Shown: in pieces, positions 15,440-62,474 of the stretch
Position numbering within the stretch: position 1 is the first letter of the stretch
Layout of the letters: each line of letters begins with the position of its first letter
Source: Tubiluchus corallicola
Taxonomy: Eukaryota > Animalia > Priapulida
Length of the DNA: 64,000 nucleotides
Reading direction: 5' to 3'
Assembly: GCA_030141605.1 (NCBI GenBank)
Contig: JAQGDQ010000601.1
Location: 62,001 to 126,000 of the forward strand
The notes under the pieces: generated by a model
Databases searched by the model: none
Seen by the model: the letters and a program-made list of their open reading frames with translations, nothing else
What the model was told of the DNA's origin: nothing
Translations under genes and position numbers: made by a program

Positions 15440-15471
<32 letters not shown>

Positions 15472-18400: not shown

Positions 18401-21400
18401 ATCGGCATAAGACTGAACCTTTCCTTGATTATCCCGTACATTAGAACAAGGAAACAGAGACTTGGCCTTCTTCTTCTTCCTTGCAAGAATGCCCACTCGG
18501 CTGTGAGGAGCACTTACTTCGTCAACGTCTAACGTTGACATTAAATTTCTGAGAATATGTGAAGTTGTCATGGTCATTCCTGTCTGATCACCTGGAAAGA
18601 AAGAAAAAAAGAATATGGCTTTTGCATTGCTTTTCTAGGAAAAGTAGGAACAGTTAATATGTATCAATTTCATACATACTAAAAATGAAAAATCTCTTCA
18701 AGTAATTTCTAAGTGCTTATGCAAGTACTGATTTAAAATAGACATTTAACAAATGCGAGCTTGCAAACCAAAATCATCCATAAGTCAGGAAAGTTAAAAC
18801 TACGTTATGATGCTTCAAAGTAGAATGTACCAAAAATCTGGTCGAATGTCAATTTGTTTTTTTTTATAAAAATAAACGCTAAATTTCTTGGACTTTAATA
18901 TTCTAGAACCAAATTGTCAGGAAAATGTTTAAAAATACAAAACATCTAATTTTACAACCCCATACTCACTTTTCTGTCTAGAAACTAGTACTGCAATTAA
19001 GAAAAATTTGCATTTTCAAACTCGGCGGTAGCTCATGGAAGCAATCATTTTGCTTCTGGTTTTTTCTGTTGTCAAGCCCAGATCTTCGTCAGAAAGAACC
19101 AGCTACTGTATTTAAACAGCAACCAAAATTTGTGTGGTTGATAAGTGTTTCTTAGAAACGTGACAAAAAACAATGGCAAACTGTAACAGCAAATTTCTCA
19201 ATGTTACGTCTTTCAGTGTGTAGCATGCACTGATCTTCACGAAATGCAGCTTCAGGATATGTGAATAACTAGAAAAGCTTAATTGCCCACATATGGGCAA
19301 TTTTGGTATGCAAGTACACATTTAACAATTTTTAAAATTGTACAGAAGACAAGCTAAATGAAATCATTGAGAGATAAGTGTATGGCCAAGTTTCCATTTT
19401 CCACCAACATTGTATTAGGTCTGTGTATAACAAACTACCACCATTAGTTTCTTGAAATGATAACTTCTACAGCTTGAAAAACATGACGAGTAAATGTTGA
19501 TTCTTTTACATCACAATTAATGATTAGTTGTATTCAATCTTTCAGATTCAATTTTAAAATTACTGGTTTAGTGCAATAATCACTATTTTATATTACTAAA
19601 CATTAGGGGTATATATAATTATTCAGTTTATGTTTAGTACAAATGAGTGTAAAATCTCTTGTGAATAGATCATTGACAAGACTGAAACGTATGTGGCCTG
19701 GCTACCATAATATTAATTATACATATTAAAGGAAAAGATGCCAAATTTTAAATTCATATTTCTGACAATTGATTAGCTTCAAGCCAACACCATCCTATAT
19801 AATTCTGTATAACACAACATGACTAAACTCGTAAGTGAAGCAGAATGCAGTTGAATTATACTGTACAAATATCCACGCAAAGAGTACATAAAAGACAAAA
19901 CAATTGTTGTAACATTTAAAAAAGCACGGAAATCCAAATCAAACTGACATTTGATTACTTTATCTATTCCAAACGAAATTTTGCACTCCAAATATAAGAT
20001 TGCATCAAAATACCTGCTGCAGTATTTACATGTTCATTAGGTTTAACGAACTCATCTTGCTTCTGTTCAGTCACCTGAATGTCTCCAGTGGCAAACAGAA
20101 CGTTATCCTCTTCATTCACAGCAGGTGGCGTGTCTTCTTTGTGAACCCCCTTACGTTTTGGCTTGCGCCTTTTCGGTTTTTCTGAAGGCCAACAACAAGT
20201 AGAGAATTCTAGTGTATATACATTTACTGTATGTAAGATGAATATACAAAACGCAAACATGGGGCTTTCAGTTTTGCATCTGTTGGTAAGTATTATCTTT
20301 TAAAAAGCAGACAGGACTTCAGAACTCACACAATTACATTGGTATTATAATTTTAAGTAGATTCTTCTACAGAGTTAACTATTTTGACAAAATGCTGCAT
20401 AGTCTATGTACAACTTTACAGAAAAACAAGAAATAGAAAACTGCAAAAATAGTAAGCTAACTACAATGTTATAAAAAAATCAGGCAATTTTACACTGAAC
20501 TCAGGTACTGCAAAATAATTACAGTAAGTGTTTGTTTAATTTTAAACCAGCAGCTACCTGTAGGTGGCAGAGTAAACTGTTGTTCATTTATCTGCCATGA
20601 TTGCAAGCTAAAGTCTTCTCCACCACTGTAAACCAGATCTTTAACAGTTGGACTCCATGCGACACAGAGCAGTTTGTCAGTGTGACCTCGATAATTAGCT
20701 ATAGGCACCCCAGTAATTGCATTCCACACCTAAAAGTAAAAATTAAATATATGTATTGTACAATACAGTCAAGATTCTGTACATTTGTTAAAGTTAAAAA
20801 GACAACTTTTCAGTCACAGCCTTACATTTGAGCATTTTAATATAATTTTCTGCTAACAGACAAAATCGGTTACAAAAATTTTATGCACTAACATATCACT
20901 TTTTGCAAGTACGAAGCACACACTGTTATTTAAATCAGTACAAACATTCAAGGTCACCTTATTTCATCAGAAAGTACAAAGTTCCCCTTGAATCAATGAG
21001 AGTCAGAACTTTCACAAGTCTATGTCCTTTAGTGAAACAAGTGTAAAAACGTTTCATCCTACTAATAGACATTTTTGCTCGCAACATATTCTATTCCAAG
21101 TAAGATGCTGAGAATCAAATTCAGGAGATAAAAGACTTTAGTAACAAAAAATCTCATTATTTAATAAAGCATAGATACTTAATACATACACACACGCACA
21201 CGCACACCCACACACACACACACACACTCACATACACAGACACACACACACACACACACACTCACATACACAGACACACACGCACACACACAGACACACA
21301 CACACACAGACACACATACTGAGATTTCAAAATTACAGCCAAAGTCTGCTTTGAGATATTAGACAAATAGAGAAAACTAATGGACAGTATATACAAAATT

Positions 21401-24400
21401 AAGGTAAACCATTCATTATGTTACCATTTTAATATTCACAAATTTCATACTTCTTTTTATGCTGTATAATTTACTTATACAGTGGTGACATATAAGCCTT
21501 AGTGCGTCATAATGATATTTTCTTTTTTATTACAGGTGAAATACTAGTCTGTTAAGGTTCAAATTTGAACACCTATTTAATACAGTTTTAGTTATTATTT
21601 GTATCTGTGTATTTAACAGGTGAGACCAAAATGAAGTTTACCTTTCTGTATATCTTTATCTAGCAAGATGTTGTTTTTCCTTAAAAGTTAAAACTACATT
21701 ATTGAAAATAATTTCTTCAAACTAAGAAACTATCACACTTTGATAGCATCTAAATTTTGAAAATTATGCATATATTATTCTCATCAATAAGTTTCATCCA
21801 TTTTGTCATTTTTGTGTTTTCTTTCTTTAAAGTATCTTTTTCGTGTTCATTCATGCCACTTATTAAATGAACACTGCATAACTTTTATTATAGTGTTGAC
21901 CTGATGTGTCTTCATGTGCTGATGATTTATAAATCTTGTATGTTACATATTGTTCTGTATGAACATGTACACATTGCCATTGTATATAATAAATCTAATC
22001 TAATCTAATCTAATCTAATCTAATCTAATCAAAACTTCAGAACTAGAAAAATGTTTACTACACTACTAACTTTTCGACTATTCAACTGCAACTACGTCCA
22101 GTACCTGAGCAGTGTGGTCAAATGATACGGAAGCTAGAAGTTCTTCGCACAGTGGACTCCAACTTAAAGAGGTTATTCTATTCTTGTGCCCCACTAGCTG
22201 AGTGTGGTTTTCGGTGACTAGTACTGGGCCTTCCACATGTGAACAGTTTTCCAAATTACCTATAAACAAAGAACATTACAAACAGAATATTATCATACAG
22301 CTGCAAAGATCCCTTAATTGATTAACTGATTAATAAACTGAAGAAAAAATAAAAGTCGCTGTAATTTCAAACAAATGCAAACAAAACTCACTTCTTTTTG
22401 GACTGCCATCAAAAACTTCCGTGGCCGGCAAAACATACAATAATTGGCTAAGAATAAGACAGCACTTCAATAATACAGAACTTAAAACTAAATTTCTTGT
22501 TGGCTTCTGTGCAGATCGATAAACTTTATCCATCTCCTTACACACACTTTGCAATAAACAGTGCTGTTTTTCTAGTAATGTTTACTTATACTGTTGTAAT
22601 AATAGCATCATAATACACAAATTAAGAAAAATTAAATTTATATATATATAAATAAAATTTTTCTTATATATATATATATATAAAAGGTATTATGCTGAAC
22701 ACATAATAGCATCATCGTCTGTACCAGCTACACATTGAACGCAACAAAAAAAGGAAAAACCTGCATTATCCAACATTTACGTGCAATACAATCCATGTAA
22801 GGTCTTACTATTTCTGAGACATTTTACATATGAAAATTGTGTAGAGGGCAGCATGGGTGAATTAGGTCTCATGAATCATACAGGGTTAATTTCATTAACA
22901 ACTTACCTAATACAGACGCCAGGTTGTAAACAATGACATCGTGTTCACAAGCCCCCGACGCCATGAAACAGGAATACTGTGACACGGCCATCGAGCACTG
23001 GGAAAATTCTGGATGCCAGGCGATGCAGTTGATCAGTTTCCGGTGACCTTGAACAGTGCACAGATGCTTCAAAGTGCAGGCTTGGTAGATATCAATGGAG
23101 CTGAAAAATAATGTAATGTAAACATTCGACAATGGGACATTAGCACGTGACAACAACAACGAATTAGAAAATTAGGATATTTTTCATTCTTCTGCTTCAA
23201 TTATTATGCTTATCAAATTAAATTATTAAACGTTAACATTTAGTTAATAAGACGCACGTCGTGCATTTACACCATACCACAAGCTACAAGTTTACAGCAG
23301 TGGTGCAGCAGGTCAGTATCGGGATACAATATGTGGCGGGATTTCACTTAGCTGAATGCAAGCTGGCTACCAAGATTTAGCTATTGATTCTTGGCGGATT
23401 TGAGCTGATGTGTAGCTAGACATACCTACAATGCATTGCAACATCAACCATTGCATAAGCTCATTACTAAACATGATATGCATCAGTATTTTTCTTAGCA
23501 CTTGCACAACTGTCGCAAGGCTTCTTTCTTTAACTCGTTCATTGCGCTGTAAGATGGAATCCACATACCCTATAGTACAGCCTACTCAATGTAGATGGTT
23601 ATGGTAAGATAGGAACCCAATCCCCTAAAAGGAAAAACTGAACTAAACCAGCAGTTCTCAGCCATGCATGGATGTATGTACAATCTTACAATCTCTTTCA
23701 ACAATCTGCAGCAGCTAAAGAGCAAACAGCTCATGTTGTCCATCTAAATGATTGACTTCAAATAAATTATATCTGATCTTTCCTTATTTTATCTTAACAA
23801 GATAAATTCCCACGGTTAGTATGGCACAGAAAATTGTCTAGAACAGGTTTTGAACCCAGCAGTCACCAGTCCAATCAATGACAAACGCGGTGTTACTTAA
23901 TTTCGGTTGCTAAGCATATATAGTACCTACTCGGCTATATATCTCTCTCCCAATGTTTTTAGTTATTTGAAACTTATTATAGCTTAGCACCTATGATAAA
24001 AAGTAAATCTTTCCAATGAACATCAATATACAACAGCAATATACTTTAAATTACATGTATTTATTATTACCGTTGCAACTTTGATAATAGTAATACAGTA
24101 GGCGCCGCTTAAAGGACTCAATCGCTTAACTGACTCAAAACCGCCTGGAAAGGGCCGCTTCTATTCAAATATACATAAATACTATCGGTAACTGACTCAC
24201 ATAACTCTGCATTATTAACTCAATATTTTTCCTTCACCTACTTAAAATAAGACTTTTGTATGTGCCCAAAGAGCCTTTTCTACATTTATGTCATCTTTAC
24301 TTCCCTTTTGTGCACTATATATACAGAAGCAATCATGTTAGCCACCATTTTTTTTGCAAGCAGGTACGTTTATCATGCGCTAATACACTAGCGTAGCGGC

Positions 24401-27400
24401 TTTGTTTTGAATGTGTTACCCGCTTGTCCACTGTTACCCAAAGAATTTCTGGATTTAGAAAAGCATACTTTTTAATTTACTGCTAATTCACTTATATAAA
24501 TCAACATTTTAAAATATTTTTTCTAATTTTTAACTGCACAAAGGAATTTAGGCATTATTTTGTTTCTAATATTCATTAAAAACCTTTGCAGTGCATAGTA
24601 AACTGATGACTCATACTTCTATATCTGTAATACTACACCCATCGGTTAATAGGTTCAGTCGGTTAATTGGGTCAAAACACGTCGGCCCCAAAGTGAGTCT
24701 ATTAAGCGGTGCCTACTGTATATTCAAAAAGGCAAGAAAACGATACTACAAGTTTGATGATTTCATGTGATATTGTAATCTTTCCTAACTTAAATCCCAC
24801 AAACCTGGTGCATCTTTAATCAAAAGCACATACAATGTCAACCAAAATTACAGAGAAAAATCGCACCCATCTGCATTTCCAATTGCCATGACACTAGAAT
24901 CAGGTTTCCAACAAACTTCTGTTCTCAATGGTGGTTTATGGGTCATCCTGTTAACATCGACAATCACAGCGTTTACGTCAACTGCATCCTCGTTAAGCTT
25001 ACCAGGAAGATGCTGCAATACAACTCCATCACCACAGCTGTACACACCAAACACCTGCGCATTAGCTGAAACAAGTTAATCACAGGTAACAACAAGCAAG
25101 ACATCACAGCTACTGATGCAAACTGTTTGTCATTTGTCTGCCATGTTTATCATGTATATAATGTTTACCACATCATTATAGTTCTTTTTAGATATGCTAA
25201 AAGTATATGAAATAGCATTGCTTCATACTAATTTACACTTTTAATTAAAATGCTTCAGACAACGGAGAAACTAAGCTGTAAAATTGCATGTCATTTCGTT
25301 TAAAATGTAATTTTATAAAATGAAGTTATGCCAAAATGATCTAGAAGAGCTCATACCATTCACTCCACATTGTGGACCCCATGATAAGCTGTAGACAGTA
25401 CGTTGATGATACGTTCTAGATATCATGGGTGGTTTAGAAGACATCGTGTCTTGAATCCCAACTCTCCCGTCTTCCGTAGCATATGCTAACCAACCCTCCT
25501 TTGTAGGGTGCCAAGCGACCTGTGTGTGTAACAAAGCAAAAAATCAGAAATTTTATACAACAGTCATGGGCAGAAATGTACACCAACAAGCTTTTGAAAT
25601 TTTCTAATTAAAAAAACAGCAATGCAAGAGACATTGCTTGCTTAACGCAACAAAGGGAACTGTCATCTGGTGTATCCATTTTTCATTTTTTTTAAAAATT
25701 GCATTACGAGCAAATCTACTAATCTGATATTACAACCTAAGCACCACAATTTTTACCATCTATGATGCTGCCAATTAGCATCCTGCCCTCATAAAAAGTA
25801 CCTTATGTATAAATGTGGACAACTTAATTGTTTCAGAAATGATAACATAAAGCAATCTTTAACAATGTTAAAAAAGGCTTCATTCGAAACTGAATCCTCA
25901 TATAAATATATGCTACTAAAGCCATAGTCTTGTAAAATGTATTTCTCCAACCATGATTAGCCAAGGCAGAAAGAGTACAATAAATGTTCAACTGCATGTA
26001 CCTTCACACTCACCTCTCCCTGTATACAAAGCATCTGACTCCAAACTCTGTATAAACATTGCTTGAAAATGGCCGTTTACCAATACGATCGCCCATTCAG
26101 TATCGATTATTGGTAAAGATTATGATTAATCTGGTAATCTTTTAAAATGCCATCATTTCTAGCACAACTCAAATAAACAGACTAAAACACCAATTTTACT
26201 ATACAAAGCATTTCAGGAAAACATGATAGTATACTTACTGCAGACAGCCTTGACTTTATTCCTTGCCAGAATTGCTGTATATCATAGGCATCGGCAGACA
26301 TAGAAAGATTCCATACTCTCAAAACATTATCTCCAGCCCCGACTGCAAGCCGATTGGTCTGAGAAGATAATGCCAGGCAGTTCACAGCCCCACCGAGTGT
26401 AGAGATCACACATATGCTAGACAAGCTTGCCAAACTCCACTGTATGATTTGCCTGGTAACAAAGAAAATTTTTATCAAGCGTTTCTTATAGGTATCTCGC
26501 CAATAGTTAAAGAATACTGTAAAAGTGCTGATAAAATAGGAAAAGTTTAAATTTAATAAAAAGTCACAGCTACACAAATGATTATGAATTGAAATTAAAT
26601 GTTTTAACTTCAAAGCAATACAAGATTAATTATTGAGAAATATAGAAGAGCCATTTTTCTGCAATGCAAATTTCTACCTGTCCATGGAGATGGTGAAAAC
26701 TGAGTACGGTCCGGCTGAAATAATGTTAAATATGGTTCTAGAATGGACTGCTCCACAACTGCCAGCCACAAAATTCTTCCACTTTGCTTTCCCTGATTTT
26801 CCTAATTCCCAGATCAAAAGTTCTCCTCTAAAATAAAAAAGAGAATAAACTAAAGCAACCACTAGCAATATCACCATATAAAAATGTTAGCCAAAACTTT
26901 ACTTTTATAAGTTAAACACTCAAAAACATTACAATTTCCATCCACAGTTTGCACACATGTATTCTACTGGTCTGACATAACACCATTAGGTGACAAAATG
27001 TACAGAATAAGGATAGTCGACAACGACACAATATATAGACATAGCAAAAGCAAAATGCCAACAAAGACAGATCATCTCAGTTTGTAACAAAAGCCATGAC
27101 GAATCTGTTCAGAGATGTCACCATTCACGCTGTCACCAGTTTTATTTGTGACAATATTTGTAACATTTTATTATACTATGGTTAAATCACAACAATTGCT
27201 AACTACATACGTGCTAAAGGAAGCAAACTGCATCTACGCTAAACAATTATTTTACAAACTACTAATAATACACAGCTTGAAATTATTTCCTTACCCATGT
27301 GAACTAGACAATATTTCACCATGTCTATCTGGTAGCCAGCAAACAGTGACATACGTTCTAGTGCGTGCACTTTGATCGTCTGACCGTCCCCGTTGCCGGT

Positions 27401-30206
27401 TTTGAGTGGGTAACCTTAATACGGTCATCCGTTGTCCACTACGAACATTCCAAATAGAAACAGTACGATCGCGACATCCAGAAGCAAGTAATCCGGGTCC
27501 ACCATCTGTTTCTAAAGCAACTAGAAAAACAATTTTAATTTAACTAAAAGCACACCATCATCCTTATATTAGGGATACTAATGTCAAGAAACTGAAAACG
27601 AATAACAATTATAGTGGAAAATGTGAAAAATAAAATACTTCAGACAACTTTATTGAGTTACTCACTGAGTTAGATTCACTTTACAAGTTCTAGTGTAACA
27701 CTAGTCCTAAACACGTTTACATTTCCAATTTCTGGCAGTCACCACAGTTTATACATTTTTAGCAATAAAACATGAAGTTTTACGTTTCCTTGGAAAGTAA
27801 GCGCAAAAAGAAAACCTATTAATAATTGGCTAATATTGCCACGCAAACATTACAATTTAACAGTCAATACATGACTGGAATACTTTGCACAAAAAGCAAA
27901 AAATTTTAGCAGGAAGCCTTTAATGATAACCCAAAGAAAGAATCAACTTGTGCAACACAGTAATCTACATGATTTTCTCTGTGTAATCACCATTTACTAA
28001 TAGAAACTAAAAACAAAAAACCTTTTAAAAGCACATACATGCATGTTTAAACATCTGATGTCAAATATGTCTTGGTGAAAACTTAAAAATCTGTAATAGA
28101 TTCGGAAAGCAATTAATGAGGTCCGATTTCAAGTACAGAGTCGATTTTTTCCCAAGAAAGGTTTCACTAACGTTTTTGTTCACAGTAAAATTTTATTTAC
28201 AAGTAATATGCTCATCAATTTTTTTAATAAGATTAAAACTTCCTGAAACTTTATCAGCCTGCTTACCAGATGAAAGAGTTTCACCTGACGTAGGAGACCA
28301 AGTTAAGCACTCTATTTCATCATCATGTTCTCTTAACTTGTGTAAGACTGAGCCGCTTTTGCTGACATCATAGACAAGCACTAATCCATTTTTATACCTA
28401 CACATAGAAAACCAAGTGAAAAAACTTCTAAAAAAACATGCAATGGATAAACTAATTTTCAAAATGAATCAGTTAAAGATTTGAAACCAATTAGAAGTTA
28501 AAACAACTATGGGAAATAATTCTAAGCAGTTTGAAAAAATATGCAGATAGGAAGAGGTTAAAAAAATGCTCAAGTGGTGTCAGTAATTCTCAGTAATGGA
28601 AAAAAGGATCGTTAACTTTTGATACTTAACAAACAATGACATCACATGACATCACATGATGTCAGTATGTTAACCTAATTTTAATTGCTACTGCATTTGG
28701 TTAATCAATTTAGCTCTTATAAATTCAATTTGATTTTAAATTTTGTTTTGGTAACTAGTACACACTGTATCAAGCAATATCACAACTACTTAAACTCGTT
28801 AACTTAGTTTATAGCATTTAGTTTTAACTATATACAAAACAATTACATAGCAAATGGGGCACCTTCTATTACACTGACAGAGGACCACACACAGAGGAAA
28901 ATAAAGACGATACATTATACCAAAAAATATGAAAACAGACATTTGTAATGTGTGTGAGTCAATGATTTTGTTATCATTTGTCATTATACAGATCAACACA
29001 TATGAAGATAAATAAATGAAATTGATAATCTTTATTTCAGACGAAAAGCTGTTTATAAAATTTGTTTTAACATATGTCATATATATTTAATACAACATTT
29101 ATAATTTACCCCACAGCTATGTATTCAGTTACATGAGGACAGATTGCCAAACAGGAAATGGAATGAGACACTGGATGAAACCACTGCAGAGCTCCAGTTT
29201 TATAATTCCACTTGTAAATATAGCCTTTATCATCACAGGAAACAATAATATCCAAATTGAATGATGACCAACCAATTGCTGTTACTTTACCCTACAAAAT
29301 AAAAAACAATGTTAACAATAAATTACAGTTCTCATCAAAATCAACCACTGACTTACCGACCAGTCAAAGTACTGCTTAAAACTTTTCGGTTTTCTGCATA
29401 ATTTCCCACTCAGTTTGTGCATTTTTTTGTGTGGCTTGTCATTCAAATAGAGCGGTTTTTGCATAGTTTTTGGCAAATTTATACAAAACTCCTTGGCTTG
29501 CATGCAAAAATGTACACAGTTTTCATTAAAGCTATTATTCACAGCAAATCAGTGCAGTGAACTGAACAGATGGTAATTTCTACATGTAATTTGTTACATT
29601 TTATAAACTATGAACCTTCAAATAACATAAAGCAATTAATGAGTGGGAAATCACGCAGAAAACTGCTCTATGTATAAACAACCCCCTAAAGATACGACTT
29701 CCATTAATTTGCTGTTATGTGATAACAATTTGAAAAGTAATTTTTCTGCATACAGTCATCTGTCAGACTTATACTTTATAGCATAGTTATACCATTCTCT
29801 CAAACTTGACTATTAAAATAACGTCAGCATTCTGAATGCCTCACAGTTCCTTTAAATGTAGATTCCAAAGAAAAATAAAGATAAACGACAAGGTAACCAT
29901 TACATTACGCTCACGATGAGTTTCGTGAAATTTAACTGTTAGTTTGGTGTCTTCATCCCACACGACAACACATCCATCCTCATCACAACTGCAACCCAAG
30001 CGTGATCCTACTTCTGGCTTCCATGATACACCTGTTACTCTGCTTTGATGCGTACAAATCCAACCAGCAAAGCTTGAAGGCTTCGACTTTACATTTAAGA
30101 ATACGATATTATTTCTACAGCCGAAAGCAAGGAAACCATTCGAGTTATAATCGCATACACGACTGCAATACCAGTTCGGCGAAGGACAAAGGCCCACGCC
30201 GTTCAT
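7705..30206 (-). CDS. GEMIN5: Gem-associated protein 5 (WD40 SMN-complex subunit), roughly 22 exons
   Basis: N-terminus [23 protein letters not shown] matches the Gemin5 PPSPNWYC motif. Successive WD40 exons with GT-AG borders, e.g. 29904-30206, 29110-29291, 28267-28397, 27295-27520, ~26678-26827, ~26238-26452 ([20 protein letters not shown]), ~25356-25519 ([19 protein letters not shown]), ~22907-23100, ~22105-22259, ~20558-20729 ([13 protein letters not shown]). Then ~18351-18592 ([10 protein letters not shown]), TPR-like exons ~16195-16481, ~14937-15057 and ~14118-14328, a large exon 9460-10637 and a probable last exon 7705-7887 (FPHPVES). The 3' exons are less certain. Confidence 0.92.
11611..12158. 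mobile_element. hAT-type MITE in GEMIN5 intron
   Basis: TIRs CAGTGGCGGCTC / GAACCGCCACTG; 8-bp TSD AATCAGAT / AATCACAT (1 mismatch). Confidence 0.8.
14577..14638. repeat. Perfect 62-bp AT-rich palindrome followed by (TA)n
   Basis: ATTCACAAATTAAGAAAAATTAAATTTATAT|ATATAAATTTAATTTTTCTTAATTTGTGAAT; the left arm recurs at ~22616. Confidence 0.9.
15419..15511. repeat. (CA)n/(CACG)n microsatellite
   Basis: Directly visible; explains the spurious CV/HT-repeat ORFs. Confidence 0.95.
15553..16000. repeat. ~125-bp tandem repeat, about 3.5 copies
   Basis: Recurring unit ACGACCCG..GATATCCGTA.GATCTGGCG..GGGATAT..TAAGCATCATTTGCTCGTTAACATCACGGAGTTCGA..TAAACTA..ATCATTCCCTACCTAAGAC; unit starts near 15626, 15749 and 15875. 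Confidence 0.85.
21183..21318. repeat. (CA)n-rich microsatellite
   Basis: Directly visible. Confidence 0.95.
21992..22030. repeat. (AATCT)n pentanucleotide microsatellite
   Basis: Directly visible; could be the tail of a decayed L2-type retroposon. Confidence 0.85.
24096..24718. mobile_element. Tc1/mariner (pogo-like) MITE in GEMIN5 intron
   Basis: TA|CAGTAGGCGCCGCTTAAAGGACTCA ... TGAGTCTATTAAGCGGTGCCTACTG|TA. Confidence 0.85.
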
Positions 30207-32541
30207 ATTATAAAAAAGAGATGAGATTTTGTGCAGTAAATAACAGTCTGGGTTTTAAAAATCTCAAAGATGACTAAAACTAAAAAACTTTACATAGGAG
30301 TCACATGTATACGCGGCAATGACAGCAATCATAGTATGTTTCTTTTTTTGCGCGTCTCAATGTCGACGTTGAACAGTCGAAGTTGAAATTGACAGTAGAG
30401 ATGTGCATTGTCTGAAGTGATTGTGCGCATCTTAAGGGTGCAGTTTGTATGTTGATAACGCGCCCGTTCAGGCGTGCGCCCAAATATCTCGGCTGTTTTA
30501 TGTGTTTCAAAATAGTAATGGTATAAGGTCTAAGTAAGTCTTCTTCTTAATTTTTCGAATAATAGAAACAAAGCGCTTTAATAGTAAAGTCCGGATGTCT
30601 CTTATATTATACAAGGAATAATCTCCATGAAGGAAAACAAGTTATCGTGCATCTGTTGAGAGCTTCGTTAATTGGCGTTATTCTCACGTTTTACAATTGA
30701 ATGTAGATTTTCATCAAAAAAAGTTATTATTGACTTTTGAACTATTAAAGACCCACTGAAACTTCTTGCTATCAAAGATACCTAAAATGCAGTTGTGAAC
30801 ATATAAACTGCATTTCGGCTAGTTAAAGTGTAATATTGTTTCGTGTTGTGTGCTGGGAAGCCAGGTGAGACAACGCTAGGGTTTTTTGTGTTCATGTCAG
30901 AAAAAAGTTTGTTGTAGTAAAATTTATTTAATTGTGGATGACAGTTCACATCCTGTAAAGGCTAGATTCCAAAATCAAAAGTGCAAATTTTTTTTCTAAA
31001 ATAGGAAAAGGACAAGTTAGTGGGCAGTCTAGTACACGCAATGTTCAACACAGTGTTGCTGTACAAAGGTAAAACAAGCATGCCTACACTATTTTGTGAA
31101 TGTTAATATTACAATCACGAAGCTTGTATTATTTCATTGTGTAAGACTTAATATTACATTATATCAGTAGGCCTTTTATGCATGACAAAATGAATTTTGC
31201 TTTTCAATTCATTTGGATTTGAAGCCATGTGATTCGTCTTCACACAGCGTACGTAGTTGTAAATTGTCATAGTGTTACCAAATTTGGTGGAAGGTATAAA
31301 GTAAGGTTGAGGGTTATCTTTCTAGTTTGAGTCATTGATTTACCAAATATTCATGTACATAACATTACTACAGTCAAACCTCTTTGACAAACCTCTACGG
31401 ACCACATTTACACTGCAACAATATTGGCATTATCGTTGTTGCCGCCGTCATCATTATTGTCATCATCATCATAATCATTGTCATCATCATCATTATTATA
31501 TCAGTAAATACTAAGAGTACGTACTTTTATTTCCTACTATTAGTATAAGTAAACACTACATTTTGTCATAACCTTGAACAAATCATTGACCTATAATAAT
31601 ATATTTTATACAGAAAAAGCAAGTTAGTTGATTTCTATTAATTTTTTGACTCTGCACGGTTCGTTCCGTCACTTGATTTAATATTCAATGATCATAATTA
31701 AAATTAAAATTATAAATTGTTGTTAGTCCAATGAGTAATCCTATATTTTTAGAAAAATAATCTGCTAATCCGACAGACAAAGAATAGATCTACATAGTTC
31801 TGTTACACTTGGGATGAAAATAATTATTAAATTTTATCGTTAGCAGTATGATTTTTTTGCGCTATCATGTATAGTTAACAGAGCTTCAATAGTAAATAAC
31901 AATATCAACACTTACTCACTATTATGCTTATTCACAAAACTGAATATCCATGCAGGATCATTTTTTCTGTATTGTTGATCATTAATTTCCATATTCCATA
32001 ATTAATAAAATCATTTAAACATGTAAAGATAAGATTTAATAAAGTAATAGAAAGGTTTAATTCTTTACATATGTGAGCAATGAGGTATTTTTATCTGAGA
32101 ATGTGAAGCCAGCAAAAAATATCAATTTTCAGTTATTTTCTTAAACATAAAGAACAGTATGAGCTACGGTTTGCTTTGCCTTTCATTTCATGTAATTGGT
32201 ATTTTAAATGAACACAACTAACTCTTGACATAAATGAATTACTGTATCACAAGTAATTTATACAACATATCATATAAGCTTTTTTTACTCTAACCTAATT
32301 AAGTTCATAACAGTTGTATTCTTATACCTCTATGACTTTTTGCTATGTATTTCCTTAAAATATTAATTGTAAAACATTTAACAACATTAACAACTACCGT
32401 CCATGTGCATACAAACTACCTGGAATCATTTCTCCTCACACTTCCTTCACATTTGTGGTCACCGGGAACCTTATAAATCTGACGACTAATAGATCACACA
32501 GACAACAAACAGTAAACTAAGCTCCATATAGCTTAGCAGAA

Positions 32542-35500
32542 TTAAAGCGCCTGTTGTGCAGTGCTGGTTTCTTCTAACATCTTTTCCATGTCTTTTAGCG
32601 GGTATCTGTTATCTGACGGCTGCAAGTTAAACTTCTCCACCAAAATGTTCATCACGTTTGGAGTGATGAAAGCTGGCATCTTGGGACCAAGCCGGATGTT
32701 CTTGATGCCCAAATGTAACAACGTGAGCAGGACAGCAACCGCCTTCTGCTCAAACCAGGACACAGCTAATGATAGAGGTAAAGAGTTCACGTCTGTCTTC
32801 ATTGCATCAGCAAGAGCAGAAGCGACAGCCACAGCTCCATAGGCGTCATTACACTGACCAAGGTCCAGCAGACGTGGTATACCTGTGTTTCCTAACGTAC
32901 CAAGTTCCTGTCGATTGAACCTAAATTAATTCAAAAATGTTCAGCAGGTAGGAAAAATACTAGTGCCGGTTCAATGTTCAAGAATATTCAAATACGTTAA
33001 TGGACTTCTGGAGAAAAGGCAGGTAAAGAAAAAATTAAAAATTCCAAGTAAACATCTATCAATTTCATTAAGTGGGAACTAATTAAAGTCTTAAGAAGTT
33101 ATGGGCTTACCTCGAAAACTACTTATATAATTCACATATTCAACTGATTTGTTTTTTCCTTTTTTATTACAGTAAGTTTTCCTGCCAATTCATTCATTTT
33201 AGTTTACTGCATTCTCACGTCATAGAATGTATTGGAGTAGACCTAGTGTATCATTAAAGTGGTCCTCTGTCCGTCATAATTTCTTAGTCTCTGCTGTCTT
33301 TGGAAAAATTTCTAATTTTCGTTGTTACTTGACAGTTTATATTGATCTGCACCTCGTCATTTCAGCTGACAGGTGTGTTGCTTCAGTGGCTTATCTTGGA
33401 TAGGCATTCTTGATAATGAACCATGCTCTAGTCACGCCACAAACATTTCTTCGAGCATGCTATTCTAGGCCCAGTTTCACAAACCGTCACTAACTTAACG
33501 ACATTGTTATTAATAGTTAAGTGAATGTAATGACGACAACATCATTAAGTTAGTGCCTTCTTTGTGAAATCGGCCCCAGGCCTGCAGTATTCTGTTTCTT
33601 GAAACTGTGATGTTTTTTACAGTCTACTTTTCTGTGTCCTGAGCTTATTAAATTATTGTTAATAAAGTAAAGTTTTGCTTTGTTTTTTGAATATAACTAT
33701 AACAAACTTCATAGTTTCTACCACGTTACAACTTGAAAATACGTACTGCCAAACTTGAAACAGTTGGAGTTTTAAAAGGAATTATTAAGGTATTAATATT
33801 CGGTCAGAAGCGATTATTGGTCATTTCAAATAACTAAACCTGTATTTTGCACATCCCATTGTCAAAACTATGGTGTCATCTGGCAAACCATCAACGAGCT
33901 TCGTGTAGTAACTTCTTCTATTTTCAGGACCATCACAACCCCCGACAACAAATATCCTCTTTAGTGTACCTTGCTGGACTGCTTCAATGACCTACAAAAA
34001 AATGCATTTATTCGCCGTTTTTTGTTGTTATGAATTGTCGCATATGCCTGTGAAAGCCCGTGATCGATCCCGATCAAACTCAACGATCGTCAGTTTTGTT
34101 AAAAAAATGATCAACCTTTAGGTCAGTTTAACAAAAACAGCAATTAACAAAAATAATTTCTTACACAAGGTAGTATTGCAGAGTAGTACTATATTTTTCA
34201 AAAATGTAGAGCTTATAGCTATATTAACAGGAAGTTACTTAAAATAGTGCATTTTTTTTAAAAATAAATAATTTGTTTAAAGATTTAATAAAATCATTAA
34301 AATTCGTTAAAAATATCAAGTTATTCGATTCATTCATGGTATAATTAGCAAATTTTTGATAAATTAAGTCACTGTGATGTAAAGTGTTAGAGAGAGGAAT
34401 TCGGAAACGCGCCCAGCTTATTCAGGTATACGGCCATTACTGTCCACTCGGTGTAGACACATCAAAAGAAGGAAGTTAGAAGGAAAAATGCGGGGCAAAG
34501 ATACAAAAACCTTCGCAGGACTTCCACAACACTCTTCTTGCTGACTTGATACAGGATTTGTATCACAGTTATAGCAGTAGTTGTTATGTAGTTATAATAA
34601 AACTGTTATACGATCACAGTGTTTAAGGCCCGTACCTGTTTATGTACGCTGCTAATTATCAATGCCTTATTGGACATAATTATACAAGCACCATAATTAC
34701 CATAATATACAAGCAGGTTTAGTGGATGAATAACATCAGTGAGGCAAGAGGGTAAAAAATTAATATTGTTTTACCCTAATATAGTGGACCCCTGCAAAAC
34801 GTCAACCTGGTTGCATCCGGCAAACTACATAATGAGATCTGAACGTGTAATAATACTTTCACCTGTTCTGCTTTTGAAGCAATGACATCGTGGCCAAATC
34901 CTACAGCCATAGTCTTTTCTTCCCCAGTTGGAATGCACTGCTCTTGTGTAAATCCAGGCGTGTTTCTTGCTGATTCCAATAACACCTCCATATCTTCCTT
35001 TTTGTGGAGGTTCAAATGAGTACAGCCTGTAAAATTAGGCAGACAGGTAGTTATCTATAAACCTATCAAATACATTCACATAATACACATCTTTAATAAA
35101 CAAGTACAAAAATTCTACTTCAATGATGTAAAGAATTGCTAGATGTCTAAGAACTTTGGCGCATGATTAATTTTTTAGTATTACCTGGCCATCCAACATC
35201 ACCAACAGTGAAAAGTCTGTCTTTATAGGATTTCATAGGTTCAACCAAACAATTGGTAGTCACAACAATTGGTCCTGGGAAGTGTGGGAATTCATATTTT
35301 TGGATGTACCATGCACCGCCGTAATTTCCAACCAAGTGCTAATTAAACAAAACAAGACATACGCTGTATAATTAATGTCATTAATACTACTAGCGCAAAA
35401 TTCCCACATGACTATGCTACTAACTACCAACAGCCAAAAGCCAAAGATCCATCTCACGACTATTAAAGCACATATATATAACCAAAAGCTTTATATTCAA

Positions 35501-38500
35501 TGTGCAGTCGTCAAAAGCTATTGATCTGTACTGTTAAAACAACATGCCATATTGCATATACAATTAATGTCACTTGTTATAACAATGAAAATGAAAAGCT
35601 CAAAACTGAAAATCATTAGGGCTACAGATTAGTATCAATGATTTTGACAACGTCTGGGAGCATAAACATACAGGTCTATATAGCACTGTCCGGTAACATT
35701 AAGCTGAAAATGTACACTACCAGATGCACGATAACAAAATGTTTGACCCACTACTAGACCCACATGCCACAAATGCTACGGATCTACACACTATGAATGC
35801 CCGATATACAAAAGCTGTGGCCCTAAACTACAAACGTGATGTCTTTCTAGCTACAGCCTACGTATTTGTACTACTAATGCACAGCAGTCAAAACTACAGA
35901 GCCGTACTACTATTGCTTGCTAATCAAAAGCTATATAACAAACGCTATAATATATAATTATATATTATAATATATAATTATATATTATAGTCAAAAGTTC
36001 AAGTGAACAGCTGAGTGGTGAAGATTTTTGCTCTGCAGCCGAAGTTATGCAACACTGAGAATGATCAGTGAATAGCGATTATCATTAAATTTTTGATTAT
36101 CATTAACATTATCAATATGCATTTTGAGTGTGTTAATTTAGTATACTGGTTCTGCATATTTATTTCATTGAAAGAGGATCTATTTATATATGAACATGCT
36201 AAGGCACCTCTGCTGGTTCAGTAACTCATCTAGAGGATAAGCCTTTTAAAGACTTTGTTATTGGATTCCAGCTTGCAGTGTCCCAAATTGTATGAAAAAC
36301 AAACATACTTCTATAGCCAAATGAAACAAAATGAGCCTTTCTGACATATCATTTCTGACCAAAACTTATCATCTTCCTGCAGTTGAATTTTTACATGTGC
36401 TGAAAGTCTAGCGGGCAGCTCAAACTAAAAAAACCTGTTTTAGTCATAAACAAACCTGATGCCACGCCTTGCATCTTTTATTTGTAGTATGTACTAGTGC
36501 TCAGTAATCGTTTTCTTAACTGAAGAAAACGTGCTTAAAGAATTTTTATTAATTCACCTTGTATTTGCGAACTTCTGGATACCCATGACCTGGTAGTAAT
36601 TCACCGTGCGTGTAAACATTAATACCTGTACCTTCGGTTGCTTTCAGGATTTCCAACAAGTCGCCTACATCGTGTCCAGAAACTAAAATAGCCTGAAATT
36701 TACATACACAACTTGAGCATGTCATTATTAGTTCTATAATATACATGCTACACTTACTTAAGCACCTTATATTGCTAGAAAAAGAATAGAAAAACGAAAG
36801 ACGAGAAACGTATGATGATGATGATGACGACCAAGATGATTATGATGATGAAGATGATGATCCAAAAGAAATAATCTTGCTAGACATCATCTAAAATCAT
36901 TGCAAAATACACTGCTGTCTGGTAGGTTAACCATTATACCTTTCCTGGCATTGGTGTAGTGGATACTTCGTGTGGCGTTGGAACACCAAATCTGTCACAA
37001 TGGCCTTTATCCAGCAATTCCATGCCTTTCAGGTTGGCTTTTCCCACGCCTAGCGCCAGCTCTAAGTTTTTAGGCAAATCCATCCTTTCCTCATCAGGGG
37101 CAGTTTCTAGAAAGTCGAGGGCCTGAAATTCAGAAAACCCTTATAGAGTCCAGGTTGGTCCAGAAGGTCGAGGGTCGGAGCGTCCAGATTCGGCGAGATT
37201 TGTCTAGAATGTGCAAAATCTTAGATAACCCCCAACTGAAGCCACATACTTATGTGTTATACAAATTGACGGAGGTATGGCCTACTGTATGTATTTAATA
37301 GGTATTGCGTCTCTTTTACCTCAAATGTGAACTCAGCTATTTCCCTGCAACCCTTTCCCAGGAGCACAGCATGGCGAGCGTATGAAGCCATACCTTTCAA
37401 ACCAAACACTACCATCTGACGAACACCATTGACGTCCTTGCCAAAGATCTTGTCCTCTTCTTTGTAATTCACCTTTCTTCCTAACAAGTCAAACACGATG
37501 GTATGACGTAATAATTTAACGAAATTTAGTTAATTCGTGTTTGATAATTGATTATAATCAATATTGTTAAGCACAAAAGCTTATTACGATCAAGCACAAC
37601 AGATTGGTTTTTCCATCTGATGTTTTTTGTCTGAATCTACAAAGGCCGGTATTTTATTTATTCCAGGTACTTTACCTTCAGCTTCAAGTGTTTCTATATC
37701 AAAAGCAGGAGGAATGTAGGTGGCAGGACCTTCTGTAAACACTTCTGGTTTTATCTCTTTTTCCTGTATAATAATTCAAACTTTCATGGAAAAAATTAAT
37801 AGTAACAAGACTAGCTGGTAAATAATCGGGAAACTTAAAAAAGCAACCTAATTATAGTAGGGGTCAAAATCACTTAAGCAAGTTACAGCTCGCTTCAATT
37901 GTTCATTAATTCCTTGGTTTGTTCGTTTATTCATTCGTTCGTTCGTTCACTCATTCATTTATTCATTCACTATACCATTCATTTTCTGTCATTATTTTGT
38001 TCTCTTCATAGTGATTGACCCATTTATAACCCGATCAATTAGAATTCAGTAAAAAAAATTGAAAATTTTTTTCTCAACGAAATAAACATGAATCTCTATG
38101 TTACACTGACGGCAGCATTTTCACTGTTGTTGCTTACATAGTCCATACCTTACACATTTTTTCATACAATTCCTTCATTCGATCTCGATATTCCAGTGTT
38201 TGCTTTATATAGATCGGAAAGCGGTCGTGGTCGAAGTTAACGTTAGTTAGTGTGCTACAAGTAAATAAAACTTTGTAAACACAATAGCATAACTTGTCAA
38301 AACACTGAGCCGAATACGCTGTCAATAGACTGTACTGTAGGCCAATACAGCGTGCAGACCTATCACTGTGAATCTCTAACCAATGTTTGAGTGCAAAAGT
38401 GTCTTTTAGATCTGTGTGCAACTTTCCGGGTGTTGCTTCTTGTGCACGTGAAATTATCAATGCCTGTAAATGCTTTTTTACCACTAACCTAAACAGAGAA

Positions 38501-40592
38501 GAGAACGTATGGTCATAGACTTCAGCATCAATCGCAGCTCCAAGTTTTGTGGCTCTATGTCCGTACATTGCAACGCCGCGGAGAATGTAGCACAGCAGAT
38601 CTTGCAGGTGCGCCACTTCTGCCGTCTTTCCACACACCCCGATTGTGACGCAACCAGTCCTATTTTTCGTCTGCTCGCATTGGAAACAGAACATGTCTAT
38701 AAAAAAAGCCGCATATTTGTAGGTTTTAATCGAACACGCATAACCTTCTCGCAATAGGAATATTATTATTTAATTCAAATAAACTTTAGTAAATAAGATT
38801 TTATTTTCTTTACTGATGTTGATGTTTACTTTGTTGATATTGAAAAAATACAAATTTGGCGCTTTTAAGTCCCGCATCGTCAGTAGACAGGAATATTTAG
38901 TTTACTGTCAATGCGTGCCCGAGCGCTTAAATTATCTTACATCTGTCTGGAAAAAAACATACACATTTACACGCCTGAAGATAGGTGGGCAAATATGCAC
39001 GCGTCCTGTCGCAACATAGTGATTGCAAATCTAAATAGGTTAAGGTAACAATTAATCATTAATGTAAGCAATGCCCTCCACTATTGCAAGTTAATTTGAT
39101 TTCTCCAAAGTGATTCTGTCTGAAAGGAAAGTGACATACTGAAAAAATTTGTTCCATTGTTAGGCTTAAATGGGAAGTTACTTATAGTACTACATACTTA
39201 CATAATTACACAGCGAATTAATGACTGTGATCAGTCCGGTCTTAAAGTCAGTTGGGTGGTCTACTTTTGCATGGTGAATGAGGCATCTCTATGAGATGTT
39301 AGAGAATTCAGTTTGGTAGACAAGGTGAAGGAGAGGAGGTGGCTTCTCCTATTGCAAAGTTGTAGGCCCAGGCTTTTTTGGTAGTAACGTGACCCGCATG
39401 GAATATGCCACGGAGGCTTACAATCCACAGTCAACATTGGCATGGTAGAACATTCGTTTTTGAAATAGAGCTCAAGCTGTTTGAGAAGAGGTCAGACTTT
39501 TTCGGAATAAAAAGAAGTACTGCACATACCATTAGACACATTGGGCATTGGAGGACAGCTATAAGCCACGTGATTACGTGCACCAAAAACAGAACAATAA
39601 ACTCTTTTGACTATCACTCAAACTAACTTAGAATGAACCTGGTACTGACACTTGGCCGGGCCTCAACTGTTAGTGGAATTTAATGGCCACCTTGCAATCT
39701 CGCAATACATCTACACACAACCATTTGGGCCTGGAACACCTCGGAAAACCTTGAATCGGAATTTCTGAAAATTATCATGTGTAGAATTTCCTGTGAATAA
39801 ACGACAGGCCTATACTGGAAATGTCTGTTCATTCAGTTGGATAGTTAATTTTGTTTCATTTTTCTGTTTACCATTTTTGATGGACAATACTGTAGTTCTT
39901 TTTTTACTTTTTCAAATAAAGACAGATTTTAATTTATTCATGTTAAATGAATGTGTGAATTTATGCAAATTTTTCATGAAAATACAAATAGTCTAAAAAA
40001 TGAAACAAATGATAAAAATCGTGTAGTCAATATTTAAATCGAATGATTTTTATACAGTACAGCCATACAGTTCTGAAAAAGTTCATAAAGCATTAAACCC
40101 GAATGAAATACTGTCACGTTTGAACGAAAGCGACAGTGCAGCTGAAGTTGCTGAACGAATGCAAGATTCATAATCTTAATAATTTTTAGACGTTCTCTGG
40201 CTTAGTTTTTTATTCATTGCACCAAAGTATCACCTGTGAAGACTTTAGTAAAATGTAGAAAGTTTAGCGTTGAAAATTAAAAAAACTAAGACAATTTCAC
40301 TTCTGAATTGAATGCAACGCATTAATCATTCCTTATCTTAAAAACCTTAAATTACTATTAACTTAAGCACTTGTTAGATTTTAATAATTTTATTTAAAAA
40401 TTATAATTTGATGCGAAACTCACCCTCTTCTGCAAGCACTTTTGCCTTGGTTGCCAGGCTCCTCTTTTGGTTTGCCGAAGATTTGACGATCGCGGACATC
40501 GGTCGAACAATCCGGACAAAATCTGTCTGATTACGGAACAGCTGATGTGTTGCCAAACGACGTAATGCCGTGCGTGCTAACGGAGCAGCCAT
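32542..40592 (-). CDS. hcp: Hybrid cluster protein (prismane / hydroxylamine reductase / NO reductase), class I-type, 11 exons, 632 aa, with predicted mitochondrial presequence
   Basis: Frame-consistent GT-AG exons: 40424-40592, 38489-38696, 38149-38254, 37676-37763, 37320-37480, 36940-37122, 36558-36692, 35185-35338, 34863-35026, 33840-33991, 32542-32920 (1899 nt). Motifs: [16 protein letters not shown] (CX2CX8CX5C), [76 protein letters not shown]. Confidence 0.96.
33467..33577. mobile_element. Short PIF/Harbinger-like MITE in HCP intron 10
   Basis: Imperfect TIRs GGCCCAGTTTCACAAA / TTTGTGAAATCGGCCC. Confidence 0.5.
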
Positions 40593-41139
40593 TGTTTCAG
40601 AAAACTTTCAAAACTGCGACTTACGTATGGAAGAGTTATTTATTCTCAGCTCAAGCCTTCACTGAGACTGTAAGCTGACTAAACAGAATCTAGCGCTGAT
40701 TATCAGCTTGCTTGGTGTTTGATTATTTACAGGAACTCGTCTTAGCTAATAGTGACGAAAGTTTCCCCAGGTCAAGGCCTTGCAGGGAACTATAATAACC
40801 CACGTGTGCTACGTACCAGCTTATGCCAACAAAAACTGTACTGCTTTCACAACATTTCACAACATGTGTCAGAAAGAATCAGAAAACATTTAAAATACAT
40901 GTACTTTAACGTTAAAAAACTGATCTGAGAAACGCTGATAATTTACTGCCGTTAGTTTAATAATAATTTTCGTTGATGGCAGCCATGCTGAAATATATAC
41001 TAGTAGGTAGTCTATTGTAGTGCTGATAGTTATAACATGGGGTGATAGTAAGCAGTATGAATTGAAAGAAGTACGGATATGTAAGTCTATAGTCGATTGT
41101 CGGTTTTGATATTTTTTACCGCACTGAAAGAGCGTTCAC

Positions 41140-62253: not shown

Positions 62254-62474
62254 ATCACGTGGCAGCTAAATCCCAATACTTAAAAGCAATACTGCATGAG
62301 AAGCAGCTTGAAAACTCATGATTGCGGATGCCTCTTTCCAACAACCAAGTTCTGACTCTGCAGTGTTCAGCATTATAATTCAGAGAAACAAGACTTTTGT
62401 GAAGTGAACGTTTGCTCTTCCAATTGCAGCAAAAAAAGACATTTCAACTCATTCATTAAAGCGGGATTACGTAC

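What the first reader, a model, noticed from the sequence alone, without database searches (positions are those of the whole stretch)
32542..40592. Intact, intron-rich hybrid cluster protein (HCP) gene in an animal genome
Seen: 11 GT-AG exons splice in frame into a 632-aa protein. It keeps the N-terminal [4Fe-4S] motif CX2CX8CX5C (class I spacing) and the hybrid-cluster ligand motifs His (SGHD), Glu (THGE), Cys (TTNC), persulfide Cys (GGCDG), Cys (GCAK), Cys (GQCND) and Glu/Lys (WFEQK). Established: HCPs are characteristic of anaerobic and facultative bacteria and archaea and some microbial eukaryotes (anaerobic protists, Chlamydomonas). They are linked to NO reduction to N2O, hydroxylamine reduction and protein S-nitrosylation, and are not part of the standard enzyme set of model animals. 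Ten spliceosomal introns, intronic MITEs and a position 2.3 kb from GEMIN5 argue against bacterial contamination. Inference: this animal has its own anaerobic NO-detoxifying / N2O-producing Fe-S enzyme, from ancient horizontal transfer or patchy retention.
Basis: partly seen in the sequence, partly recalled or inferred. Interest (0 to 1): 0.93.

Follow-up and report, generated by a model that had tools for sequence, protein, structure and literature searches.

The report
Hybrid cluster protein in marine animals
This animal has an intact, intron-rich gene for an iron-sulfur enzyme so far described from microbes; worms, clams and a lamp shell share it, and the enzyme is likely sent to mitochondria, where it would remove nitric oxide when oxygen is low.

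Summary
Eleven exons and ten GT-AG introns give a 632-aa class I hybrid cluster protein (HCP) with every cluster ligand. A transcriptome-like run under the same species label skips introns 8-10 at their exact lengths, and 28 of 31 changed codons are silent. So the gene is real and under selection. It is not peculiar to this animal: orthologues occur in 16 named annelid, bivalve and brachiopod species, share several intron positions and form one clade (100/100). That clade sits among eukaryotic HCPs; grouping it with bacteria is rejected (AU p=0.019). Likely role: mitochondrial NO-to-N2O reductase in hypoxia-tolerant animals (untested, about 50%). Databases label these genes automatically. In ten searches I found no paper describing an animal HCP clade; a 2007 Riftia cDNA was put down as possible contamination. 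Two key HCP papers were not readable. The scan's own index returned no earlier animal HCP.

The parts
40424..40592 (-). Exon 1 (aa 1-56): Arg/Lys-rich N-terminal extension, predicted mitochondrial presequence
   Evidence: No Pfam hit; 11 R+K against 4 D+E, net +5 in the first 30 aa; helical moment 0.56 against a 95th percentile of 0.43 in the rest of the protein; similar extension in 24 of 24 orthologues checked. Junction to exon 2 not tested with RNA.
38489..38696 (-). Exon 2: cubane [4Fe-4S] motif C60-C63-C72-C78 (class I spacing)
   Evidence: (E 1.5e-12)
38149..38254 (-). Exon 3: helical N-terminal domain (TLTNVNFD motif)
37676..37763 (-). Exon 4: linker of the helical domain
   Evidence: length matches orthologues in the alignment
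37320..37480 (-). Exon 5: second helical bundle (the part reduced in class III)
36940..37122 (-). Exon 6
36558..36692 (-). Exon 7: hybrid-cluster ligands His312 and Glu336
   Evidence: loose end of the X6 contig continues into it
35185..35338 (-). Exon 8: ligand Cys380
34863..35026 (-). Exon 9
33840..33991 (-). Exon 10: Cys475 (persulfide Cys position) and Cys503
32542..32920 (-). Exon 11: Cys530, Glu564, Lys566 and stop codon
   Evidence: (E 2.7e-37)
33467..33580 (.). MITE-like hairpin repeat in intron 10 (ends approximate)
   Evidence: Inner inverted arms 33488-33507 and 33536-33555; summed contig depth about 7,900 in this bin of run X1 against 11-51 in other covered bins
9310..30254 (-). 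Neighbouring GEMIN5 gene (context only; ends approximate)
   Evidence: TPR_GEMI5 E 4e-30, WD40 pieces, weak GEMI5_RBS hit

Best explanation
The locus is an intact, spliced animal gene for a class I hybrid cluster protein, shared with annelids, bivalves and a brachiopod, whose product is likely imported into mitochondria and there likely reduces nitric oxide to nitrous oxide when oxygen is low. Shown: gene structure, all 11 cluster ligands plus the active-site Lys, splicing of the last four introns in a close relative, purifying selection, one lophotrochozoan clade nested among eukaryotic HCPs. Inferred: exon 1 is a cleaved presequence; the mitochondrial ISC machinery loads a [4Fe-4S] cubane (C60, C63, C72, C78) and the 4Fe-S-O hybrid cluster (H312, E336, C380, C475, C503, C530, E564); a general matrix donor (ferredoxin or an NAD(P)H flavoprotein) feeds electrons through the cubane; 2 NO become N2O. 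This would limit NO inhibition of cytochrome c oxidase and NO damage to Fe-S enzymes during hypoxia and recovery, when oxygen-dependent NO removal fails. On origin, the gene most likely is a remnant of the eukaryotic mitochondrial HCP, kept in this lineage and lost in most other animals. Separate odds: real functional gene 0.95; mitochondrial 0.85; vertical from holozoan ancestors 0.55; NO reduction as main role 0.5.
For: Gene. Splicing: one X6 contig skips 919, 871 and 158 nt, the lengths of introns 10, 9 and 8. Selection: 28 of 31 changed codons are synonymous among the 32 X6 differences listed. Ligands: aligned through the Owenia orthologue to D. vulgaris HCP 1e2u, E 1e-141; 9 of 9 hybrid-site positions identical in 28 of 28 clade members and the 4 cubane Cys in 27 of 28, the miss being an N-terminally truncated row. 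Fold of the Owenia orthologue: pLDDT 87, best match D. vulgaris HCP, target TM 0.94, rmsd 2.1 A; residues 1-56 low confidence. Presequence. Phylogeny: animal clade 100/100 and 99 under the mixture model; animals plus prokaryotes rejected, p=0.019. Precedent: Acanthamoeba HCP confirmed mitochondrial by microscopy and among the top hypoxia/anoxia-induced proteins (PMC13632651, passages). High-affinity NO reductase is the favoured role of bacterial HCP, and hydroxylamine and peroxide turnover are judged unphysiological (PMC10210160, introduction). NO inhibits bivalve cytochrome oxidase at low pO2 (PMC7205294, abstract).
Against: No activity, localisation or induction data exist here for any animal HCP. 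The function of class I HCPs is unsettled even in microbes and their electron donor is unknown; no reductase partner is in the window. The exon 1-exon 2 junction was not tested with reads, and Met58 could start a cytosolic form of bacterial length. No targeting predictor was available; the presequence call rests on composition and conservation. X6 is only guessed to be RNA and is about 92% identical, so it may be a sister species. The sister group of the animal clade is unresolved and unicellular holozoans do not group with it in the free trees. The eukaryote-prokaryote split has moderate support (90/82), and only 15 prokaryote rows were used. Four searches of hypoxia or genome papers' supplements found no HCP entry, or no files.
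Confidence: 0.5

Rival explanations
1. Same gene and place, other chemistry: the enzyme is an electron sink or redox valve for anaerobic mitochondria, or removes hydroxylamine, peroxide or reactive sulfur species rather than NO.
For: Hydroxylamine reductase and peroxidase activities are reported for HCPs; Chlamydomonas HCP4 was proposed to reoxidise ferredoxin (PMC8003979, passages); a methanogen expresses class I HCP constitutively without nitrogen oxides. Several named carriers live in sulfidic settings (Solemya, Lamellibrachia, Ridgeia; recalled).
Against: The kinetics of those activities are judged unphysiological; the active site does not differ from bacterial HCP at any ligand.
Confidence: 0.25
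2. The enzyme is an S-nitrosylase or NO store that helps switch mitochondria into metabolic depression, rather than destroying NO.
For: Transnitrosylation was reported for E. coli HCP and a dinitrosyl intermediate exists; NO is proposed to start metabolic depression in Arctica (abstract).
Against: The nitrosylase role is described as debated; nothing tested here bears on it.
Confidence: 0.15
3. Origin rival (independent of function): the gene entered the lophotrochozoan stem once by transfer from a protist or alga, rather than descending from holozoan ancestors with many losses.
For: Named animal hits are confined to three lophotrochozoan phyla; long stem of 0.24 changes per site; holozoan HCPs scatter in the tree, and the amoeba Clydonella is sister in 2 of 4 trees but not in the other two.
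Against: Animals plus Salpingoeca and Amoebidium (each with one unnamed sister row; Pigoraptor left out) as one clade is not rejected, p=0.179; HCP is present in choanoflagellate, ichthyosporean and filasterean data and is counted among LECA mitochondrial proteins (PMC13777428, passages). Two unnamed rows (P0024, P0059) branch just outside the named animals and may be deeper animal lineages.
Confidence: 0.4
4. Bacterial contamination, assembly chimera, or recent bacterium-to-animal transfer.
For: Most HCPs are prokaryotic; no single contig laid spans HCP and GEMIN5.
Against: Ten spliceosomal introns, spliced contig in X6, near-identical intron and intergenic contigs in run X4 of a second study (24 of 30 bins covered), shared intron positions, AU rejection; none of the 74 or so named prokaryote loci given to the large tree falls in the 125-row clade holding the gene.
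Confidence: 0.02

Closest known systems
Class I hybrid cluster proteins of Desulfovibrio vulgaris (PDB 1e2u/1e1d), D. desulfuricans (1gn9) and Methanothermococcus (8cnr)
   Same: Cubane spacing CX2CX8CX5C, all hybrid-cluster ligands, three-domain fold (Owenia proxy: target TM 0.93-0.95, 39-42% identity), no reductase gene nearby
   Different: Eukaryotic gene with 10 introns and a 57-aa presequence-like extension; animal host; activity untested
Mitochondrial HCP of Acanthamoeba castellanii (PMC13632651); HCP1-4 of Chlamydomonas reinhardtii
   Same: Eukaryotic, organelle-targeted; amoebozoan and green-algal HCPs lie in the same large eukaryotic clade. The Acanthamoeba sequence itself was not in my trees.
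   Different: Multicellular animal host; animals are not known to have the hydrogenase/PFOR set that accompanies HCP in those protists (recalled); distinct clade with a long stem
Database-annotated 'hydroxylamine reductase-like' or 'Hcp' proteins of Mytilus, Mercenaria, Dreissena, Mya, Lamellibrachia, Ridgeia, Helobdella; unnamed proteins of Owenia and Lingula
   Same: Direct orthologues, 50-59% identical over the full alignment; shared intron positions 2, 4, 7 and 9 in gene fragments
   Different: Automatic labels only; no functional study found. Introns 8 and 10 are absent from the annelid-type fragments that cover them.
E. coli class II Hcp-Hcr NO reductase
   Same: Hybrid-cluster ligands; the model for the proposed reaction
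   Different: No class II insertion in the cubane motif; no Hcr-like or diflavin partner detected in the window

Membership tests
Hybrid cluster protein (Prismane, PF03063) | Profile match along the whole domain | tested here: met
   7 of 10 exon peptides hit PF03063 in order, profile positions 1-503 of 513
Hybrid cluster protein (Prismane, PF03063) | Four N-terminal Cys for the cubane cluster | tested here: met
   C60, C63, C72, C78; 27 of 28 orthologues
Hybrid cluster protein (Prismane, PF03063) | Hybrid-cluster ligands His, Glu, four Cys, Glu, plus Lys | tested here: met
   H312, E336, C380, C475, C503, C530, E564, K566 match D. vulgaris H244, E268, C312, C406, C434, C459, E494, K496 through the Owenia alignment (that these residues are the ligands is recalled); 28 of 28 orthologues
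Hybrid cluster protein (Prismane, PF03063) | HCP fold rather than CODH | tested here: met
   Owenia orthologue as proxy (59% identical): HCP E 7e-55, target TM 0.94; CODH E 1e-18, TM about 0.5
Hybrid cluster protein (Prismane, PF03063) | Bound hybrid cluster and NO or hydroxylamine reductase activity | not testable with these tools
   Needs anaerobic expression, EPR and assays
Class I HCP | No insertion in the cubane motif and full-length N-terminal helical domain | tested here: met
   CX2CX8CX5C as in 1e2u; full-length alignment from residue 1 of the bacterial chain; class III chains align only over part (class definitions)
Class I HCP | Monomer | not tested
   No complex prediction was run
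Class II HCP (Hcp-Hcr) | Insertion in the cubane motif; adjacent hcr gene | tested here: not met
   Spacing is class I; no reductase-domain match in the window with diflavin-HCP fusions as queries. Hcr itself was not used as a query.
Mitochondrial matrix protein with cleavable presequence | Basic, acid-poor, amphipathic N-terminal extension | tested here: met
   24 of 24 orthologues with net +2 to +8 in the first 30 aa
Mitochondrial matrix protein with cleavable presequence | Import and cleavage shown; exon 1 spliced to exon 2 | not testable with these tools
   No targeting predictor; reads were laid only on 29,000-35,900
Gene transferred from prokaryotes | Nests with a prokaryotic donor | tested here: not met
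   AU p=0.019 against animals plus the 15 prokaryote rows

The most novel reading that the evidence does not exclude
Annelids, bivalves and brachiopods keep a working, mitochondrial, anaerobic NO reductase inherited from the ancestral eukaryotic mitochondrion. It would be a host-encoded step of denitrification-like chemistry in animals, part of their tolerance of hypoxia and sulfide, and a source of some of the N2O that benthic animals emit and that is usually credited to their bacteria.
Probability: 0.35. Interest if true: 0.9.

Novelty: new member of a known kind. Interest (0 to 1): 0.7.

Why it matters
A 2023 structural paper places HCP in anaerobic prokaryotes and 'a few unicellular eukaryotes'. 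A conserved, expressed clade in three animal phyla widens that range to Metazoa. It adds a candidate to the short list of anaerobic enzymes in animal mitochondria, and it bears on whether such enzymes are ancestral or acquired. It makes three questions testable in easy animals (mussel, clam, leech): what a class I HCP does and which donor it uses; how hypoxia-tolerant invertebrates clear NO without oxygen; and whether part of benthic-animal N2O is host-made. It also warns that HCP transcripts in invertebrate data may be discarded as contamination, as a Riftia plume cDNA possibly was in 2007.

Tried and rejected
No whole genome is held, so copy number, other anaerobic genes and an electron donor could not be sought genome-wide. 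The run search gave 'no RNA holder listed'; X6 came in by species label only. Contig depth was not used to rank expression. HCP-GEMIN5 linkage could not be shown by one contig: pieces are short and none spans the stretch. A reductase partner was sought with six long HCP-containing proteins (four flavodoxin or diflavin-type fusions, two other long forms) and the Owenia protein as tblastn queries: only HCP exons matched. A CACGTG box 210 bp upstream is at chance level, about one RCGTG per kb per strand; rejected as evidence of hypoxia control. My first guess at exon boundaries was out of frame and was replaced. Five prokaryote loci were dropped from the large tree by my ORF filter (three carry THSE or THCE variants checked by eye); L034 was added back for the 51-row tree. 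Absence from other animal phyla is not claimed: each search scored only about 8,000 candidates and showed 120, and lost two of its own alignment members (P0010, P0057). van Lis 2020 was not held; Hagen 2022 was not looked up. Supplement searches were blank for PMC12717985, PMC8476170, PMC12403961 and PMC7181582 (one file without text), unavailable for PMC11203016, and uninformative for PMC13777428 (one file cut when stored). No complex prediction was run, since no binding claim is made.
Full report
OBSERVATION. The gene is there as described. Eleven minus-strand exons between 40592 and 32542 join to 1,899 nt, a 632-aa protein with no internal stop; 10 of 10 introns are GT-AG with pyrimidine-rich acceptors, 158-1,727 nt long. 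Coding GC is 46% and intron GC 28-43%, against 31-44% across the window. Seven of ten exon peptides scanned hit Pfam Prismane in profile order. The neighbours are animal-type genes: GEMIN5 on the same strand about 2.3 kb downstream, a ligand-gated ion channel, CUB-domain exons, an Hsp20 and hAT transposase remnants. One MITE-like hairpin lies in intron 10.

EXPRESSION AND SELECTION. Reads were laid on 29,000-35,900, which holds exons 8-11. Run X6 (same species label, another study, RNA by guess, 70,053 contigs) has one 887-nt contig that skips 919, 871 and 158 nt, the lengths of introns 10, 9 and 8. A second contig runs from exon 8 into a loose end that matches the end of exon 7 at 27 of 30 letters (compared by eye). 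X6 covers only exon bins, 7 of 30. It differs from the window at 67 of 825 laid letters, so it is a divergent population or sister species. The tool listed 40 of 117 difference rows; the 32 with X6 change 31 codons, 28 silently. In exon 11, 25 of the contig's 29 differences are listed: 23 silent on 72 silent sites and 2 replacements on 225 sites, a ratio near 0.03 by hand, or about 0.08 if the four unlisted ones were all replacements. Run X4, from a second study, has near-identical contigs over introns and the intergenic stretch (24 of 30 bins), one spanning 31853-32758. No contig links HCP to GEMIN5 directly. Introns 1-6 are untested.

WHAT THE PROTEIN IS. The cubane motif is C60-x2-C63-x8-C72-x5-C78. 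The hybrid-site residues H312, E336, C380, C475, C503, C530, E564 and K566 line up, through the Owenia orthologue, with D. vulgaris H244, E268, C312, C406, C434, C459, E494 and K496 (their role as ligands is recalled). These and W562 are identical in 28 of 28 clade members; the cubane Cys in 27 of 28, the miss being truncated. The Owenia orthologue (59% identical) was folded as a proxy: pLDDT 87, best matches class I HCPs at target TM 0.93-0.95, CODH far behind. By the class definitions in PMC10210160 (introduction read) it is class I.

THE MISSED FEATURE. Bacterial HCP begins at the MFC motif. Here 57 residues precede it, 56 of them from exon 1, with 11 Arg/Lys, 4 acids, net +5 in the first 30 and a helical moment above the 95th percentile of the rest of the protein. 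All 24 animal-clade sequences examined carry an extension of 37-72 aa, net +2 to +8; I left out five rows with cut N-termini (P0004, P0017, P0024, P0057, P0122). Salpingoeca, Amoebidium, Echinamoeba, Stygamoeba, Fabomonas and Clydonella proteins carry the same kind. I infer a mitochondrial presequence. Acanthamoeba HCP is mitochondrial by microscopy and among the most hypoxia- and anoxia-induced mitochondrial proteins (PMC13632651, passages).

DISTRIBUTION AND ORIGIN. Three searches and cluster look-ups name orthologues in 16 species of 12 genera: Owenia, Helobdella, Lamellibrachia, Ridgeia, Lingula, Mytilus (five species), Mya, Mercenaria, Dreissena, Mactra, Solemya and Sinanodonta, plus unnamed assemblies. 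In one search, apart from one repeated-domain algal protein (P0121), scores fall from 483 bits or more for this group to 461 or less for the rest. No other animal phylum is named, but the searches are incomplete. Gene fragments called on genomic contigs stop or start at the window's intron 2 (six fragments in two clusters, and a read-through insert in the Helobdella model), intron 4 (one), intron 7 (five) and intron 9 (seven); introns 8 and 10 are missing from the annelid-type fragments that cover them (read by eye). In a 329-row FastTree (462 sequences, cut by coverage and 80% identity) the 27-row animal clade (support 99) lies in a 125-row clade whose named members are all eukaryotes. In a 51-row IQ-TREE the animal clade has 100/100, bivalves 100/99, window plus Owenia 99/96, eukaryote against prokaryote rows 90/82; the mixture model agrees on the clade (99) and gives 88 for the split. 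Animals plus prokaryotes is rejected (p=0.019). Animals plus Salpingoeca and Amoebidium is not (p=0.179), though it is not found either. So the gene was in the common ancestor of annelids, molluscs and brachiopods, and came from the eukaryotic pool. Vertical descent with many losses (0.55) and one old eukaryote-to-animal transfer (0.4) remain open. PMC13777428 counts HCP among anaerobe-enriched LECA mitochondrial proteins (passages).

HOW IT LIKELY WORKS. After import and cleavage, the matrix Fe-S machinery would load both clusters. A general donor would reduce the cubane, which passes electrons to the hybrid cluster; there two NO would be coupled to N2O. This rests on bacterial HCPs, where high-affinity NO reduction is favoured and hydroxylamine and peroxide turnover are judged too weak. 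The need is plausible: in the clam Arctica, NO builds up at low pO2 and inhibits cytochrome oxidase (PMC7205294, abstract only; Arctica HCP was not checked). Many named carriers burrow, close their shells at low tide or live at seeps and vents (recalled). Against: nothing was measured, class I donors are unknown and no partner gene is nearby. Rivals are a redox valve or other substrate (0.25) and a nitrosylase (0.15).

WHAT IS IN PRINT. Ten searches (terms combining hybrid cluster protein, hydroxylamine reductase or prismane with metazoa, animals, invertebrate, bivalve, annelid, mussel and genus names, plus MitoTOL, class I structure and N2O emission) found no paper describing an animal HCP clade or function. 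Two passing mentions exist. [quoted passage not shown] A Riftia plume cDNA library gave an HCP-like clone, which the authors thought could be bacterial contamination (PMC2175520, passages). PMC10210160 limits eukaryotic HCP to a few unicellular species. PMC1484493 (passages) and PMC8003979 (passages) treat protists and algae only in what I saw. PMC13777428 names no annelid or mollusc in its main text, but its data set includes Capitella, Helobdella and Lingula and I could not see its Fig. 6B. van Lis 2020 was not held and Hagen 2022 was not seen; either may mention animals. The scan's index gave no animal HCP by words or sequence.

VERDICT. A real, selected and (in a close relative) spliced class I HCP, belonging to an old lophotrochozoan clade that is annotated in databases but apparently undescribed, with a likely mitochondrial address. 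The enzyme type is known; the host range is the news. Interest 0.7.

Noticed in passing
P0349, P0353, P0354, P0358-P0360, P0379, P0382: HCPs of 750-1,240 aa fused behind a flavodoxin domain, with an FAD-binding domain in P0353 (Pfam shown for P0353 and P0349; the others judged from N-terminal sequence), several with presequence-like starts. They may reveal the unknown electron donor of eukaryotic class I HCPs.
   Followed up: partly
P0024 and P0059: Two unnamed HCPs form the sister group (100/99) of all named lophotrochozoan HCPs; they may come from a deeper animal lineage.
   Followed up: partly
PMC2175520, EST EF648468: A Riftia plume HCP cDNA put down as possible contamination may be the host gene, since Lamellibrachia and Ridgeia have orthologues. 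The EST was not fetched.
   Followed up: no
P0008 and P0055: Database gene models look mis-spliced at positions of this gene's introns: Helobdella has an 11-aa insert at intron 2; Solemya lacks roughly the exon 4 segment.
   Followed up: partly
window 33467-33580: High-copy hairpin (MITE-like) element in intron 10, also present in runs X4 and X5.
   Followed up: partly
window 40801-40806: CACGTG box about 210 bp upstream of the HCP start; at chance level.
   Followed up: yes
window 29291-29902: Run X5 holds a contig that skips this 612-nt GEMIN5 intron, so X5 contains RNA or a processed copy although guessed to be DNA.
   Followed up: no
window 2207-3673 (+), 62460-63251 (+), 54014-58021 (-): Single-ORF ligand-gated ion channel, an Hsp20-domain ORF and CUB-domain exons.
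   Followed up: no
window 6482-6859 (-), 42554-42967 (-): hAT transposase dimerisation-domain remnants.
   Followed up: no
cluster 8 (Mytilus): Several HCP accessions per Mytilus species, two of them close in number on equally long contigs, hint at local duplication in mussels.
   Followed up: no
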